Shown in pieces: positions 49,901 to 58,900 of a DNA stretch of 64,000 bases. The position numbers are program-made. Numbering within the stretch: the first letter of the stretch is position 1; every line of letters begins with the position of its first letter. The DNA is taken from NCBI RefSeq assembly GCF_964188315.1, contig NC_135667.1, positions 26,784,001-26,848,000 on the forward strand. The letters run 5' to 3'. This stretch comes from Podarcis muralis. Taxonomy: Eukaryota.

Positions 49901-52900
49901 ATGTGTTTTAACTGTGCAATCTCTCTCAGCATGATCCACTCTACAGTGTAGCTGTGAAGATACATTTGTATGTGTTTGGGTGGGTGCCTTGAGTCTGCTA
50001 AATTACTGGGTATAGTGGGTGTTGGTGTTTAATCACTGCTTGGAGTATTGAGATTGGCTGCCACACACTGAATTTAGAGGTGTCAAAATACAGGCCAACC
50101 AGTTTTTCCATTCTCAGGAAATCATCATGGAGAACAAAAGGAAGTTAATGGGAGATTAACCAAGCAGATACTCTGTGTCAGACAGTAGATGGGTGTGAGA
50201 GATAGCAGAGACAAAGCAGAGTTGGCTAGCATGTGGGCTAGAGAGAAAAAGTGTCAATCGGTTAAAGCCAGCAAGCTGAGCAGTGAGCCATGTTTGATTT
50301 GAGCTGGACAGTGAGCCATGTTTCATTTCTTTTTTGATCCAAGGCTGAATCAATGGGAGAAACTGGACCCTATTGGAGTGCAATGCTTTGAACCCCTCCA
50401 TCATAGGCTCAGGTTGCATATATGTGTAAATAAGCCATACATAATAAATACACTACAGTCTCCGCTATGCTTCATTTCCAAAGGAAACACAAACCCTGAC
50501 TAAGTGTCTGGACCCCTGCAATTTTGCACTACTCTGAGATTAGGGTGGCATGTAACGCACACACACAGTCACCTTGAGTTGCATGGATGAACAATGAGAT
50601 AGAGATAAGATAGACTGATGGTTAGAATCCAATGGTCAGCAGCAGCTTGCAAATCACTGCAAAACCACGTGAGAGAAACTGAAGACACTTTGCCAAGATG
50701 CCAAAAGATGTTTTATGCACTGCATTTTTGTTAGATCATTTTAGGTATATAAAAGTAATTAAATTGTTGTAACACTGATAACACAGCTGACAAGTGGGGC
50801 TTAAATCTTGCTCAGTTTGCTGGAAAGAGATGCATAGAGCCATAGCAGGGGGATCCCTTTTTGCCAAGCTAGGTGAAGGAAAGCAGGGACTTCTCCATGC
50901 CCCTGATAAGAATTTGGCCCATTGAACCAAAAAATATTCCACAGCTCTAAGGGATAAAAATCCATGACTTCTGATGGAGACTTGCAAACCACCTTGCAAA
51001 CCACTCATCAAAGTTTTATTCTCGTTGGAGCTTTGAAAAGAACCTTGGCTGCATGAATAAAATGGACCCAGGATGGTTCAGATACTCAATCATAGATATA
51101 AGACCAATGATGATGTTTCATTTTTATCCCACCTTTATCATGCTATAGCACAAGAATGACCATCAAATAGTGCAGCAACAAACACTGTTGTTGTTGACCT
51201 CCATCTATCTCAGGAGACAATGGAGGAGTGTGCCTTTGTGGGTGAAGCCAAACTGTTGGAGAATCACAGTGTCTGCTGTGGCTGTAGAGACTGATACATG
51301 AGAGACGTGTTTTGTTGCAGCTGGGGCAGATGAAGGAATCTGGTCGTGCTACTGCATTGTGGAAGAACTGATAAAACAGTCCAGTACAGACCCACAACTA
51401 CTGCACTATTATTATTAAATCAACAACATGCTGCAGAATACACCAGTCTGGTGAGGCCCAAAGATTACTTGTAAGCTGCAGCCTACATCAACAATATGAC
51501 CCTCATTCTATGTTTTGTTGAGGTGCACAGAATCACCACCCACTGGCGCACGAAGGTGGGGGGCGGAGGGAGCGGTCAGCCCAAGGTGCCATTCCTGGGG
51601 GGTGCCATGGCAGCAGGGCCCTCCCCGGATGCCCACCACTCGCCGTGCACCCTGGGAAGCACGATGCATGCCCCCCGCCCCACGACGTGCAACATGTGCC
51701 CCCCCACGATGTGCGCCAGTGACACCCGTGCCTGTTCGCCACTCCGGGTGCCAGAGCATGTCACTCCGCCACGGTTACCACCACCACAACAAACTTTTCT
51801 GCTAATTTGAAAGTTCCATACTGAAAAAGGCTTGAGAAGAATCAGAAGGATGAGGCAGGATCTTGGATTGTCCTTTCTTGATCCTTTTCATGATCTTCAT
51901 CTCTGCTGTATTCTTTGGGCAGGATGTTTCCATGCTTTCCATTATCTAACCTTTTCAGCGCCCTGGAAGCTACAAGGCAATGAGGATCTGCGGGGAAAGA
52001 AGAAGCGAAATGTTAGATGCATGATTTATTTATTTATTTGGTCTCTTTGTTATTCATTGGTGTGTTGAAAGTTTGAAAGAATGCTTAGACAGAGGAGGAA
52101 TTTTTTCACCAGAAGACCAGAGTGTCTGAATGAATTCCTGGAGGACAGAGCAGAGCTGACTGTACTATGAGGCAACAGGAGGCAGCCACATTGGATGACA
52201 GAATCTGGGCATCAGGAAAGAGTATTTTTTATCTTCAGTTTCTTAAATTTACTATAACCTACCAAGACAATTTCTGTGGTGAAAGACTGTGCTACATGAT
52301 ATACACACACACTTGCCAACTAAGAATAATGCTCCATGCATCTGATAGAGTCAAGTTTATGAAAACTCATGCCATAATTAATTTGTCATTCCTTAAAATG
52401 TCTCAGGACTCTTAGCTGTTTCTGTTTTTGCTGTAGCAGGCTACTGCTCTTATACTGTAACTACATTTTTATCCAATACCCCATTATTATTACTTTTTAT
52501 TCCAAATGGTTTAAATTATAAATACAGCTCAAAAGTATTTTCCAAATGTTGGTATCCAGTTTCCTTGTCATATTCTGAAATAAGCACTGTATAATTATTC
52601 AAGTCTCATCTCCAAAACATAGCATTTCATCGATTTCTATCCTTTTCTGAACTTTGCTGTCTGATTCTGTTTTGAGACATGCACAGCTTGGGAATAAGAT
52701 ACCGGAACCAGGCACAGCTGTAAGCAATCTGGATCCAATAGCTGGGATATTGGAAGCACGCTGGGCTTCTCAATTAATTTCTTGCATAAGAAGAACTCTG
52801 CTGAGTCAAATCAAAAGCCTATCAAATCAAAAGTTTCCCAAAGCAGCCAACCAGATGATTTCATGTTCTTACCTGCAGGGTCACAGTAAGCCCTTTCCTG

Positions 52901-52950
52901 AGTCACATCAGTTTTAGACTTCCCAACAACTACTAAAAATGAAAGAAAGA

Positions 52951-55900: not shown

Positions 55901-58900
55901 CTTACCTGTCTCATAGCAAGACTTCCAATGGTGGTCTTTGTCATAGGAACTGGTTGTAGCACACCACAACCAATGGAACCTGGATCCATCCTTGGTGCAG
56001 GTATGATATGTCTTGTTATTATAGATAAATGGGAAGACACAGGATGAAACGTCTGAAACAGTTAAAGAAAACGGGTAAAGACCATTGTGATTTAAATTTA
56101 GTAGATCATATTATTTTAATGTTGTTTTCCACAACTTTGTAGCCTACAAAAAGAGTATGGTGTTGAATTCCAGATATTAAAGAATTTTTGTAATTCTTGA
56201 ACGTCAGTATCATTTATACTGAACACTGAATAATTCCTTCCTCTTCAAAAACTGGGGGGGGGGGGCACCATGAAACATGCAATGTAAACTTAGGAAGTCA
56301 TAAGCGTTTGGGGGGGGTGGAGTTCACTGACTTTAGGAAGATAAGAAGCTGTTATACTGAGACAGACCACTGTTGCATCTAGATCAGCACTGACTAGTAG
56401 TCTCTCTCTCAAGGATTTCAGATGCAGGTTTCTCCCAGTTCTACCTGGAGATACTGGAAACTGGACCCAGAACATTCTGCATACAAATCAGATGCTTTAC
56501 AGCTGAGCTATGACCCTTCCCAAATGACATTTCTCACAATTAATTAATATTGGAGCTGTGGGATAGTAAGCAGCATTTGTGTACCAATATATACAATGAT
56601 ATTGTGGACCTGGGAAAGGTATGGGAAAGTGCCTGCAAAATGATCCTTGGGGAGGGGGGACTCCTAAGTGTTTGGAGACCTTGAGGGAGAGAGAATAAAC
56701 ATTATGTATAATGTGGAAACACAGGATAGAGAGCAGTTTTAAATCTCTCCTTTATAATGCTACATAATACTCAGAGACACCCAATGAAAGTGATTGGCAG
56801 GAGTTTCAGGACAGATAAAATATTGTATCATTATATCAACCATAACTAATTTTACAAGGTGATAGCCATTAACTTCAATGACTTTGACAGGAGGAAAGCA
56901 GCACCAACTACTCTTAGCCATAACAATTAAATGCTTTCCGTCTGTGTTCCACTGTATACCAGTTGTTGGGGAGTACATGGATGGGGAAAAGGGGTTCTCT
57001 GCATGCGCCACCCATTGCCTTAAGAAAAACAATCGCCTGACCAAAACTGAATGGAGTATGCTGAATCAGACTTGGACTGATCCAGCAGTGGTGATTTTAT
57101 GTTTTCATGCACTATCATTTGCAAATGACCAAAATAAAAAGTCTAATGTCATGCAGCCTTCTGCCTTATCAGGTCTCTTTGCCACCCCCTTCTGCCATGA
57201 AGGGGGAACTTCATGTGGGGCACTGGCATGGCACTGTCCTCACAGTGACTGCTGCTTTTTAGTCCTTCTCCTCTTCAGTCACTTCTCGCTCAAGAAGGCA
57301 GTGGGTGGGGATGAGAAGAAGCAGAGCAGAGCGTATACCTATATGGGCCACCAAAGGAACTGGAAGGAATGTGTCAAGAAGATACAACATGGTTCCTCAG
57401 AAGCCACAGCTGTCAGGCTCAGTAGCAAAAGAGACATTGCCTCATCAGCCCATAGCACAACTATTCAGCATTACATAACACTTCCTGCTCAGTATTGCCC
57501 TGATTCTTCTTTAAACTTTGCCCACTGGACTTGTTCCACAGCCCAGGCAAGGAAAGCATCTTCTGTACCTCGCACAAATGCTTCTTTTCCACTTCTACCC
57601 TATATATATTAACAGTACAATCCTATGCAATCTTACTCAATAGTAAACCTCACTAAATCCCCCAATAAACAGATGAGAACATGATGTTGCTCTTTAAATA
57701 AAAAAAAAAGATTTCGATACTCCATACAACTCAATGCCACCAGGAAAAAAAATCATTGTTTCTGAGTCAACATGTTCCCCACAGCTTCTCTCACAGGACA
57801 AGAGCTTCCAATCTTAAAGTAATGAAGCAGGAAAGAATAAAACAGAAGAAGGGAGATAGTTCCTGCTGTGCAGTGTTGGGGAGGCAGAAGGAAATTCTTA
57901 CCTGGACGTGCTGAACTGAAGGGTAACAGGACCCAGGTACAAACTAGGAGTTGAGTGATGAACCACATAGTTGCTGATCACTCCAGAGTTTGAAATCCCT
58001 GTGCTTCTTTGTGGTGTCCTCTTTTTAGCACAGTCTCCACACACCCTTAATTATGGTTGCAAAACACTGCACTCCATAAATAGCCATGACACTCATACCA
58101 GACAAAGGAATCTCAAATACTAAATACTGGGACAAGAAACTCAAAATAGGTGTGTATGTGCCAATCAGCTGGGCTAGGCCATTTTTTTCCCCTTTCCTGT
58201 ATCCCTGCACTGCTTTGGCATGAGATTTCCCACATACGTAATACTTCTGAAATTACAGTGAGCAAATCATTGGTGTTAGGTCTGAGCTATAATTAATTGC
58301 TAGCTGCAAAACCCTGAAGGCAACACCTCAGCTTCAGAAGAACTTCACTGTCATTCTGAATTGGCTGTTCTGAGAGTGGGGAGTAGGGCCTTTTTAAAAA
58401 AACTGGAACTCGCCAGAACTGAGTTCCAGCACCTCCCAGGTGGGCTCCATTGCCAATTTAAGAGAACAAGGGAGATGTTCCTTGTGAGTTCCAGTACCTC
58501 TTTTTCTAGAAAAATAGCACTGGTGGGGGGTGTTATATTCCGGACACACTGACTTTCCACACTCCCTTCAAAGACCTCTATCATTGCTGAAAATTATTAG
58601 CAGTTCCAAGACATGTAACCATGGGTGTAGCCAGGGGGATGGGGGTTAGCTGCCACTCCTAAATTAAGTAAACAAAAACACTTAACTGAAATTAGATATA
58701 ATCAGAATATTTGAAATTGACATGCTTGCAGAGGTCACTTGGATGATGTTGTGGCACATTCTAACAACGCAGCTGGCAACACAACAGAGAGATACGGCAT
58801 GGTTTCCACGAACTCATGGAAATATTTTCTGTTTCCATAAAATAAAAAAAAAGACTCTGCTTGTCTCTAGGGTTGGCATATTTCAAAAAGTAAAAACCAG

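What the first reader, a model, noticed from the sequence alone, without database searches (positions are those of the whole stretch)
51842..57968. Hidden 5-exon gene for a secreted two-FN2-domain protein
Exons of 67+147+165+60+146 bp total 585 bp, all joined in phase 1 with GT-AG sites, giving 194 aa: signal peptide, FN2-A (with an NKT sequon), FN2-B and a tail. No protease, kringle or lectin exons were seen. Known: FN2-only secreted proteins are the mammalian binder-of-sperm (BSP, e.g. PDC-109) and ELSPBP1 families, which bind choline phospholipids. The WCATTxxYDxDxxW motif here resembles MMP-2/9 and fibronectin FN2 repeats more than my recollection of mammalian BSPs. Inference: a reptile-specific secreted lipid- or collagen-binding family in the male tract, skin or femoral gland, or nasal mucus; adjacency to ORs may be incidental.
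Basis: partly seen in the sequence, partly recalled or inferred. Interest (0 to 1): 0.66.

Follow-up and report, generated by a model that had tools for sequence, protein, structure and literature searches.

The report
Lizard secreted two-FN2-domain gene
This is a real, intact five-exon lizard gene for a small secreted protein with two fibronectin type II modules; it belongs to the sperm-binding-protein-like family and is already predicted in a related lizard, so it is ordinary rather than hidden or new.

Summary
On the minus strand, exons of 67, 147, 165, 60 and 146 bp (57968-51842) have AG/GT sites, all join in phase 1 and run from ATG to TGA. Exons 2 and 3 each match Pfam fn2 over its full length. 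A 196-aa NCBI model from Zootoca vivipara, 'seminal plasma protein HSP-1-like isoform X3', maps collinearly onto all five exons.

- The gene is one member of a vertebrate-wide family of FN2-only 'ELSPBP1-like' proteins.
- It lies 2.7 kb downstream of a five-FN2 gene. That gene's last three coding exons are in the window and are identical to Podarcis muralis 'epididymal sperm-binding protein 1'.
- Domain trees group it with ten other squamates and with turtle three-FN2 proteins.
- The 60-bp exon 4 looks like the remnant of a third FN2 module that lost its core.
- The published BSP fingerprints are not met.

Function is inferred: a secreted, glycosylated FN2 binder of choline lipids or collagen. 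The tissue is unknown. The spliced model was never joined; each exon was searched on its own.

The parts
57902..57968 (-). Exon 1 (67 bp): ATG plus a signal-peptide-like hydrophobic segment; donor CAG|gtaaga; leaves phase 1
   Evidence: An in-frame TGA lies 12 nt upstream of the ATG (read directly). Kyte-Doolittle 11-residue means are 1.3-2.3 over residues 1-20. 87.5 % identical to residues 1-24 of P0016. No Pfam match.
55906..56052 (-). Exon 2 (147 bp, phase 1-1): FN2-A, four Cys, N-K-T sequon
   Evidence: Pfam fn2 E 1.4e-19, profile 1-42/42. 92 % identical over 48 columns to P0016 domain 1. The sequon is at the same loop in 10 of 11 squamate sequences (the window's among them) and 0 of 4 turtle ones.
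53921..54085 (-). Exon 3 (165 bp, phase 1-1): FN2-B with an EHGGNS linker
   Evidence: Pfam fn2 E 1.5e-18, profile 1-42/42. 91 % identical over 54 columns to P0016 domain 2.
52873..52932 (-). Exon 4 (60 bp, phase 1-1): short linker with one Cys; probably what remains of a third FN2 exon
   Evidence: AG/GT sites. 84 % identical to P0016 residues 129-147. With one long gap it aligns to both ends of the turtle orthologue's third FN2 exon: 6 of 2000 shuffles reach the score. Controls against a- and b-type modules are not significant (706 and 800 of 1000).
51842..51987 (-). Exon 5 (146 bp): charged hydrophilic tail (9 D/E, 8 K/R, 3 H in 47 aa) with one Cys, then the TGA stop
   Evidence: 96 % identical to the C-terminus of P0016. 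Weak but non-random likeness to the tails of Eublepharis and Lerista models (0 of 1000 shuffles each). No Pfam match. Only P0016 was found among 1.84 billion representatives.
51015..51020 (-). First AATAAA after the stop (822 nt downstream): candidate polyadenylation signal
   Evidence: Pattern scan only. No transcript evidence.
63573..63719 (-). Neighbouring gene: 147-bp FN2 exon (fourth FN2 of a five-FN2 'ELSPBP1' model); not part of the finding's gene
   Evidence: Pfam fn2 E 2.2e-20. Its translation is an exact substring of P0059, 'epididymal sperm-binding protein 1 [Podarcis muralis]'.
61694..61858 (-). Neighbouring gene: 165-bp FN2 exon (fifth FN2)
   Evidence: Pfam fn2 E 1.9e-18. Exact substring of P0059. 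73.8 % nucleotide identity to exon 3 over 164 bp.
60661..60695 (-). Neighbouring gene: last coding exon, (R)VQPGGGDECQ plus stop. AATAAA follows 186 nt later. It lies 2.7 kb upstream of exon 1.
   Evidence: 100 % match to the last 10 residues of P0059. Acceptor, stop and AATAAA read.

Best explanation
Shown: an intact protein-coding gene of a lacertid lizard. The window matches Podarcis muralis exactly at the neighbouring gene. The gene has five exons on the minus strand. They encode a signal-peptide-like leader, two fibronectin type II modules, a 20-residue Cys-bearing linker and a charged tail of about 48 residues. It is the orthologue of the Zootoca vivipara model 'seminal plasma protein HSP-1-like isoform X3'. 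It belongs to the vertebrate family of secreted FN2-only proteins that NCBI names ELSPBP1-like. It lies head-to-tail, 2.7 kb downstream of a five-FN2 'ELSPBP1' gene.

Supported: its own lineage is shared with geckos, iguanians, anguimorphs, a skink and turtles. The turtle proteins have three FN2 modules. In squamates the third module's core appears to have been lost, leaving the 60-bp exon 4.

Inferred, not shown: the protein is secreted and N-glycosylated on FN2-A. It uses the aromatic pocket of each FN2 module to bind choline-phospholipid head groups and/or denatured collagen, as BSP, ELSPBP1, fibronectin and gelatinase FN2 modules do. It would act in an exocrine or genital-tract secretion. 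Which ligand and which tissue remain open.
For: - Gene structure: exon sizes, AG/GT sites, constant phase 1, ATG and TGA.
- Domains: full-length Pfam fn2 on E2 and E3.
- Orthologue: P0016 is collinear over all five exons at 84-96 % identity.
- Separate gene: there is a TGA 12 nt upstream of the ATG. The upstream gene has its own terminal exon, stop and AATAAA, all matching P0059 at 100 %. A similar Met-led hydrophobic leader is seen in Zootoca, Paroedura, Anolis, Elgaria, Sphaerodactylus and Heteronotia models.
- Family: the profile search gave 594 proteins at E<=0.001 among 4194 candidates. The 120 listed come from squamates, turtles, paleognath birds, monotremes, a sloth, frogs and non-teleost ray-finned fishes, and are mostly named ELSPBP1(-like).
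- Lineage: in a FastTree of 694 FN2 domains, E2 and E3 each fall in a 15-member clade (support 98 and 92). Each clade holds the window exon, 10 squamate domains and 4 turtle domains. IQ-TREE gives 98/97 for the FN2-A clade.
- Third module: exon 4 and its counterparts in Zootoca, Paroedura and Anolis align to both ends of turtle FN2-c (P0126): 6, 4, 0 and 39 of 2000 shuffles reach the score. Against a- and b-type modules at least 157 of 1000 do.
- Pocket residues named in PMC4557993 section 6 are present in both modules: the Tyr of CxFPFxY, the Trp of WC and the Y-D-x-D-x-x-W block.
- The sequon is kept in 10 of 11 squamate sequences, the window's among them.
Against: - No transcript or protein data could be consulted, so splicing, exon 4 inclusion and expression rest on a gene model from another species.
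- Models for Elgaria and Heteronotia read through the exon 3 donor. Eublepharis, Lerista and Sceloporus models skip exon 4.
- Three long models (Eublepharis P0012, Sceloporus P0007, Euleptes P0002) fuse these two modules to the upstream gene.
- The careful FN2-B tree places exon 3 in a 24-row clade (89/96) that also holds turtle seven-FN2, echidna, sloth and platypus second domains. There the turtle three-FN2 domain sits with those rather than with the squamates. The FN2-B evidence for a squamate-plus-turtle lineage is therefore weaker than the FN2-A evidence.
- Both FN2 trees rest on only 54 columns.
- The BSP fingerprints are not met, and the ligand is unknown.
Confidence: 0.8

Rival explanations
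1. The two FN2 exons are the 3' part of one larger multi-FN2 gene that starts upstream of the window. Exon 1 would then be spurious or an internal exon.
For: All FN2 exons are phase 1-1, so any join stays in frame. The 147+165 bp unit is repeated upstream on the same strand. NCBI or UniProt models from Eublepharis (P0012), Sceloporus (P0007) and Euleptes (P0002) carry the exon-2 and exon-3 type modules as the last two of 5, 8 and 11 FN2 domains. An AG lies 5 nt upstream of the ATG and would keep phase 1 (read).
Against: The Podarcis muralis model P0059 ends in its own exon at 60695-60661, with a stop and an AATAAA 186 nt later, matched at 100 %. A TGA lies 12 nt before the ATG. The Zootoca model starts at exon 1. 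Six further species' models start with the same kind of leader. In P0012 that leader sits in the middle of the model, as expected of a merged prediction.
Confidence: 0.07
2. The main product is a shorter two-FN2 protein without the tail. Transcripts read through the exon 3 donor and stop 22 codons later (…[24 protein letters not shown]). Exons 4 and 5 would be minor or unused.
For: The read-through frame is open for 22 codons beyond the donor. The Elgaria (P0017) and Heteronotia (P0019) models end this way. Mammalian BSPs end soon after the second FN2 (PMC4557993 section 6).
Against: The exon 3 donor is a good GTAAG, and exons 4 and 5 have strong acceptors. Exon 5 is the best-conserved exon between the window and Zootoca (95.9 %). 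It shows non-random likeness to the gecko and skink tails. Exon 4 likewise resembles its Paroedura and Anolis counterparts (1 of 1000 shuffles each).
Confidence: 0.12
3. Same gene, different function: a matrix-type collagen or gelatin binder, for example in skin, connective tissue or eggshell membrane, rather than a lipid or sperm binder.
For: FN2-B scores 72.3 bits against the fibronectin chain 1qo6, which has a single FN2 match, and 59.5 against an MMP-2 module. It scores 39.9 against PDC-109 domain b. Both modules read WCATT, unlike the WCSL of the BSP fingerprints.
Against: FN2-A's best single-module hit is PDC-109 domain b (50.1 bits, against 44.5 and 44.1 for fibronectin and 41.6 for the best MMP-9 module). 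BSPs themselves bind gelatin as well as choline lipids (PMC4557993 introduction), so module similarity does not separate the two ligands. The nearest named relatives are FN2-only secreted proteins, not matrix proteins.
Confidence: 0.3

Closest known systems
NCBI model 'seminal plasma protein HSP-1-like isoform X3' of Zootoca vivipara (P0016, 196 aa)
   Same: Same five coding exons, in order and with the same content: leader, FN2-A with sequon, FN2-B, Cys linker and charged tail. 84-96 % identity per exon.
   Different: Two extra residues in the leader and scattered substitutions. It is a computed model of another genus. Its name comes from similarity, not from an assay.
Turtle three-FN2 proteins named 'matrix metalloproteinase-9-like' or 'ELSPBP1-like' (P0126 Lepidochelys, P0128 Terrapene, P0130 Malaclemys, P0132 Chelonoidis)
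   Same: Leader, FN2-A and FN2-B fall in the same clades as exons 2 and 3. P0126 aligns at 57.6 % to exon 2 and 69.5 % to exon 3. They share the TDE..PR.FWCATT loop.
   Different: They have a complete third FN2 (WCSL type) where the window has the 60-bp exon 4. They lack the FN2-A sequon (0 of 4). The 4 models end in three different, unlike tails, and none resembles exon 5.
The neighbouring 'epididymal sperm-binding protein 1' of Podarcis muralis (P0059, five FN2) and mammalian ELSPBP1 (four FN2; number recalled)
   Same: Secreted proteins made only of FN2 modules encoded by phase 1-1 exons of 147-165 bp. The two genes are adjacent on the same strand.
   Different: The window gene has two modules plus a non-FN2 tail. 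Exon 3 and the fifth FN2 exon of the neighbour share 73.8 % of nucleotides. In the 694-domain tree the gene's modules fall in other clades than the neighbour's window exons U1 and U2. No eutherian ELSPBP1 sequence could be obtained here.
Mammalian binder-of-sperm proteins (BSP1/PDC-109, BSPH1, BSPH2)
   Same: Two tandem FN2 modules after a signal peptide. Block I (CxFPFxY), Block II (C-T-x-x-x-S in FN2-A) and the pocket Trp and Tyr are present. FN2-A's best single-module PDB hit is PDC-109 domain b.
   Different: Blocks III and VIII read WCATT, not WCSL. FN2-A spans 42 residues Cys to Cys, not 38. There is no N-terminal extension but there is a C-terminal tail. The published BSP study covered mammals only: 0 mentions of Anolis or reptiles.
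'ESP' transcripts of toxicoferan oral glands (ESP-Vkom1 of Varanus komodoensis, P0091; ESP-Cyl-1 of Cylindrophis ruffus, P0060)
   Same: Same FN2-only family. [quoted passage not shown]
   Different: They have five and six FN2 modules. ESP-Cyl-1's fourth and fifth domains cluster with the neighbouring ELSPBP1-type gene's exons, and neither ESP protein has a domain in the exon 2 or exon 3 clades.

Membership tests
Fibronectin type II domain (Pfam PF00040) | Full-length match above the gathering score, with four Cys and the FPF / WC / YDxDxxW aromatic core | tested here: met
   E2 scores 70.2 bits and E3 67.0 bits against a cut-off of 22.2, both over profile 1-42/42. Four Cys in each (for FN2-A; for both).
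Squamate/turtle orthologue group of P0016 | Both FN2 modules fall in one supported clade with those proteins, in the same order after the same kind of leader | tested here: met
   FN2-A: 15-row clade, 98 by FastTree and 98/97 by IQ-TREE. FN2-B: 15-row clade, 92 by FastTree. In IQ-TREE it sits in a wider 24-row clade (89/96) that also holds mammalian and other turtle second domains. Collinearity is shown.
Binder-of-sperm (BSP/BSPH) family as fingerprinted in PMC4557993 | Blocks III and VIII contain WCSL. The first FN2 is four residues shorter than the second (38 residues Cys to Cys). | tested here: not met
   E2 reads LWCATTS and E3 reads FWCATTS. E2 spans 42 residues Cys to Cys, against the blocks quoted.
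Binder-of-sperm (BSP/BSPH) family | Two tandem FN2 modules after a signal peptide, with Block I CxFPFxY and Block II C[TIV]xxxS | tested here: met
   CVFPFIY and CTKDGS in E2, CVFPFVY in E3, compared.
Mammalian ELSPBP1 | Four FN2 modules and nothing else (number recalled, not from a call) | tested here: not met
   Two FN2 modules plus a non-FN2 tail of about 68 residues.
Mammalian ELSPBP1 | 1:1 orthology by tree and by synteny (CABP5, LIG1 and BSPH1 as neighbours, per PMC4557993) | tested here: inconclusive
   No eutherian ELSPBP1 sequence came back among the listed hits. Sloth, echidna and platypus second domains share a clade with E3, but first domains do not group with E2. In the window the gene is flanked by olfactory receptor genes on one side and the five-FN2 gene on the other. 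The synteny genes could not be looked for beyond 64 kb.
Gelatinases MMP-2 / MMP-9 | FN2 modules inserted in a Peptidase_M10 catalytic domain, with a hemopexin domain | tested here: not met
   No such exon in the gene: E1 and E5 have no Pfam match. The full-length orthologue P0016 carries only PF00040. The 'MMP-9-like' names of relatives are similarity names for FN2-only proteins.
Secreted protein (classical signal peptide) | N-terminal hydrophobic core followed by small residues at -3 and -1 | tested here: inconclusive
   The hydrophobic core covers residues 3-17, followed by S-S-A before R-P. No signal-peptide predictor was available.

The most novel reading that the evidence does not exclude
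Squamates turned an ancestral three-FN2, ELSPBP1-like secreted protein (kept whole in turtles) into a new two-FN2 form. They deleted the core of the third module, kept its ends as a Cys-bearing mini-exon, and gained a conserved N-glycan on FN2-A and a charged tail exon with no detectable relatives outside squamates. Such a remodelled protein could have a squamate-specific role, for instance in sperm storage, the copulatory plug, or binding lipids in gland or nasal secretions. No snake counterpart appeared among the listed hits, so it may have been lost in snakes.
Probability: 0.15. Interest if true: 0.5.

Novelty: new member of a known kind. Interest (0 to 1): 0.28.

Why it matters
It matters little beyond annotation. 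The work confirms a correct gene model and places it in a known family. FN2-only secreted proteins have been studied almost wholly in mammals. My searches of the held library found no paper on the squamate genes except a remark on an 'esp-like' expansion. Two modest points may interest people who study module evolution or reptile reproduction. First, this is a clear case of a phase 1-1 FN2 exon shrinking to a 60-bp in-frame remnant. Second, it defines a squamate-plus-turtle gene lineage next to the ELSPBP1-type gene that could be tested for a role in semen or gland secretions.

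Tried and rejected
- Structure: AlphaFold2 of the Zootoca stand-in P0016 with an 11-row alignment gave mean pLDDT 43.2 and pTM 0.27. That is unusable, so no fold search was made.
- Exon 5 origin: there is no significant likeness to a-, b- or c-type FN2 exons. The window's exon 5 did best at 52 of 1000 shuffles; other species' tails reached 36 to 953 of 1000. phmmer against 1.84 billion representatives found only P0016. The word-based search found only P0016 among 5 candidates. 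The ESM Atlas gave scores of 0.82-0.86 to unnamed bacterial clusters, below the level that means anything.
- The C-terminal motif QER..DPA is shared by exons 4 and 5 (12 of 2000 shuffles at protein level). It is not supported at DNA level (485 of 2000), so it is left as a curiosity.
- The idea that the lost third module was the BSP-like one because it reads WCSL: the turtle third module scores 52.0 and 49.9 bits against fibronectin modules and only 33.9 against PDC-109 domain b. Rejected.
- An in-frame 'FPFEY' just upstream of exon 4 (read) is probably only the pyrimidine tract. tblastn with the turtle proteins found no remnant of the FN2-c core anywhere in 51000-58100 (all such hits E>0.2).
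- A third FN2 exon between 61694 and 57968: none found.
- Exon 4 (19 whole codons) was too short for the Pfam scan.
So it remains unchecked whether this genome's own protein is among the 10 members of P0016's cluster.
- Literature search was badly posed (15,018 hits) and told nothing. PMC2846878 was irrelevant.
- The joined spliced protein was never assembled or searched.

Full report
**Method note.** The joined protein was never assembled, typed or searched. Where a full-length sequence was needed I used the database protein P0016 from Zootoca vivipara as a stand-in, and I say so each time.

**1. The observation.** The feature is on the minus strand.

| Exon | Coordinates | Size |
|---|---|---|
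| E1 | 57968-57902 | 67 bp |
| E2 | 56052-55906 | 147 bp |
| E3 | 54085-53921 | 165 bp |
| E4 | 52932-52873 | 60 bp |
| E5 | 51987-51842 | 146 bp |

- The total is 585 bp, or 194 codons plus TGA.
- Each internal exon follows a pyrimidine tract and AG. Each donor reads GTAAG. The phase is 1 at all four junctions.
- E1 starts with ATG. A TGA lies in frame 12 nt upstream.
- E1 encodes MWFITQLLVCTWVLLPFSSARP, with a hydrophobic core.
- E2 and E3 each match Pfam fn2 over the whole profile (E 1.4e-19 and 1.5e-18). E1 and E5 match nothing. E4 has 19 whole codons and was too short for the tool.
- The N-K-T sequon is in E2. The window holds no N.

**2. Independent support for the gene model.**
- A search with the E3 peptide for longer proteins returned 29 proteins. 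The closest, at 91 %, is P0016, 'seminal plasma protein HSP-1-like isoform X3 [Zootoca vivipara]', 196 aa.
- tblastn of P0016 against the window gives five collinear matches, one per proposed exon. Identities are 87.5, 85.5, 88.3, 84.2 and 95.9 %. The hits to E1, E4 and E5 end at the proposed exon ends. The E2 and E3 alignments run a few residues into the preceding intron.
- Models with the same leader and the same two modules exist for Paroedura, Anolis, Elgaria, Sphaerodactylus and Heteronotia. A partial one exists for Lerista.
- The tail exons are also recognisable outside lacertids. For E4 against Paroedura and Anolis, 1 of 1000 shuffles reaches the score in each case. For E5 against the Eublepharis and Lerista tails, 0 of 1000 do.
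- None of the five exon peptides is an exact substring of any of the 135 proteins fetched.

**3.
- The same strand carries two more FN2 exons upstream: 63719-63573 (147 bp) and 61858-61694 (165 bp). These are the same sizes as E2 and E3. E3 and the 165-bp exon share 73.8 % of nucleotides over 164 bp.
- Both translations are exact substrings of P0059, 'epididymal sperm-binding protein 1 [Podarcis muralis]', 295 aa. They are its fourth and fifth FN2 modules.
- P0059's last ten residues are encoded at 60693-60664, followed by a stop and, 186 nt later, AATAAA.
- So the window comes from Podarcis muralis or a very close relative. The finding's gene starts 2.7 kb downstream of a separate five-FN2 gene, whose first exons lie beyond the window.
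- No third FN2 exon lies between the two genes.

**4. The family.**
- A profile of ten relatives (alignment A1, first row P0016) found 594 proteins at E<=0.001 among 4194 candidates. The best 120 were listed.
- They come from squamates, turtles, paleognath birds, monotremes, a sloth, frogs, and bichir, gar, sturgeon, paddlefish and bowfin. Most carry only FN2 domains and are named 'epididymal sperm-binding protein 1(-like)'.
- Two are 'ESP' transcripts from Varanus and Cylindrophis oral glands. [quoted passage not shown] Its supplementary tree could not be seen.
- So the family is neither hidden nor reptile-specific.

**5. The gene's own lineage.**
- I cut 694 FN2 domains out of the 127 named proteins plus the four window exons, each exon on its own. 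The 8 unnamed proteins were left out.
- In a FastTree, E2 sits in a 15-member clade (support 98) and E3 in another 15-member clade (support 92). Each clade holds the window exon, ten squamate domains and the matching domain of four turtle three-FN2 proteins.
- No domain from any of the 12 snake species sampled, nor any bird or mammal domain, is inside either clade. Only the best 120 of 594 hits were available, so absence in snakes is weak evidence.
- IQ-TREE on 73 a-type domains keeps the 15-row clade at 98/97.
- IQ-TREE on 92 b-type domains is less tidy. E3 lies in a 24-row clade (89/96) that also contains the second domains of turtle seven-FN2 proteins and of echidna, sloth and platypus proteins. 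The turtle three-FN2 domains sit with those (83/99) rather than with the squamates.
- Both trees rest on 54 columns, and the program warns that many forks cannot be resolved.
- My reading: the lineage is at least as old as the squamate-turtle ancestor. Its relation to mammalian ELSPBP1 is open.

**6. Exon 4 as a remnant of a third module.**
- The turtle proteins continue after FN2-B with a complete third module: LLAGNSTA, then a core from the first Cys to ...NY, then DVDQKRTYCLDS.
- The squamate exon 4 peptides line up with the two ends of that module and lack the 34-residue core.
- Allowing one long gap, the scores against P0126 were reached by 6 of 2000 shuffles (window), 4 (Zootoca), 0 (Paroedura) and 39 (Anolis). 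Against P0128 the figures were 5, 1, 4 and 149.
- c-type modules of other genes also matched: P0059's at 0 to 15 of 1000, Pseudonaja P0015's more weakly at 1 to 77 of 1000. a- and b-type modules did not (157 to 998 of 1000).
- No trace of the core is left in the locus.
- Some models skip exon 4, which is possible because it is 60 bp and phase 1-1.
- Exon 5 shows no significant likeness to any FN2 exon and has no detectable relatives outside the lacertid cluster by HMMER.

**7. Comparison with known FN2 proteins.** Bit scores against solved structures:

| Query | Fibronectin 1qo6 | Fibronectin 2fn2 | MMP-2 module 1j7m | Best MMP-9 module | PDC-109 domain b (1pdc) |
|---|---|---|---|---|---|
| FN2-B (E3) | 72.3 | 49.4 | 59.5 | 54.5 | 39.9 |
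| FN2-A (E2) | 44.1 | 44.5 | 41.7 | 41.6 | 50.1 |

- The BSP fingerprints are published in PMC4557993 (section 6 read in full). Against them, both modules keep Block I (CxFPFxY). FN2-A keeps Block II (CTKDGS). The pocket Trp of 'WC' and the Y-D-x-D-x-x-W wall are present.
- Blocks III and VIII read WCATT instead of WCSL, and FN2-A spans 42 rather than 38 residues Cys to Cys. The protein therefore fails the BSP fingerprint.
- It may still work like a BSP. That paper's introduction states that BSP FN2 domains bind choline phospholipids, glycosaminoglycans, lipoproteins and gelatin.

**8. Mechanism.**
- Shown: an intact gene, two complete FN2 modules, a leader, and a conserved sequon (10 of 11 squamate sequences including the window's, 0 of 4 turtle ones).
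- Inferred: secretion, glycosylation, and binding of choline-lipid head groups and/or denatured collagen through the FN2 aromatic pockets.
- The tail is hydrophilic, with 9 acidic, 8 basic and 3 His residues in 47. It has one Cys that could pair with the one in exon 4. Nothing more can be said about it.
- An AlphaFold2 model of P0016 was too poor to use (pLDDT 43.2).
- The tissue is unknown. The names 'seminal plasma' and 'epididymal' are similarity names only.

**9. Literature.**
- Searches for ELSPBP1 with lizard (0 papers) and with reptil* (1, irrelevant) found nothing useful.
- 'Epididymal sperm-binding protein' with lizard or with snake gave 1 irrelevant paper each.
- 'Seminal plasma protein HSP-1' gave 1 irrelevant paper.
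- The BSP phylogeny paper has no mention of Anolis or reptiles.
- The only relevant text found is the preprint remark.
- Subscription journals are not in the library.

**10. Verdict.** This is an ordinary, correctly read gene: a new (uncharacterised) member of a known kind. It carries a small evolutionary point of interest, the collapse of a third FN2 module.

Noticed in passing
window 13058-25983 and 26709-39670: A tandem segmental duplication of about 12.9 kb at 98.5 % identity. It carries two olfactory-receptor ORFs in each copy: 14794-15840 matches 28439-29485, and 23613-24590 matches 37304-38281.
   Followed up: partly
window 3137-48869: Eight long ORFs of 324-409 aa look like olfactory receptors. 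Seven are on the minus strand and one on the plus strand. Two were checked and match Pfam 7tm_4 (E 1e-53 and 3e-47). The FN2 genes begin about 3 kb after the last one.
   Followed up: partly
window 60661-64000 (minus strand): The 3' part of a five-FN2 gene identical to Podarcis muralis 'epididymal sperm-binding protein 1' (P0059). It has the fourth and fifth FN2 exons and a short last exon. The rest of the gene lies beyond the window.
   Followed up: yes
window 51500-51800: A 300-bp patch of 61-71 % G+C starts about 40 nt downstream of the gene's stop codon, in a region otherwise near 40 %. The 110-aa plus-strand ORF across it has no Pfam match. Its nature is unknown.
   Followed up: partly
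window 52950-52985: A run of (ATT/AAT)n lies about 20 nt upstream of the exon 4 acceptor. Just beyond it is an in-frame 'FPFEY', which is probably only chance pyrimidine-tract coding.
   Followed up: partly
window 45971-46564 (+): A 197-aa open frame has a C-terminal part that recalls, from memory only, the end of BovB/RTE-type LINE ORF2. It has no Pfam match.
   Followed up: partly
window 34388-34966 (-) and 46840-47295 (-): Two ORFs share a long, nearly identical peptide stretch (…LLWSPSAS.LCSTTGKTDNKEKEAAISSA…), so a repeated element is present at both places. The first has no Pfam match.
   Followed up: no
relatives fetched: None of the proteins from 12 snake species has a domain in the exon 2 or exon 3 clades, while 10 lizard species and 4 turtles do. 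This may mean loss in snakes, but only the best 120 of 594 hits were listed.
   Followed up: partly
P0086 (Choloepus didactylus, 417 aa): A sloth model named 'zinc finger protein 444 isoform X2' joins a SCAN domain to five FN2 modules. This looks like a merged prediction. Its second FN2 groups with exon 3's wider clade.
   Followed up: no
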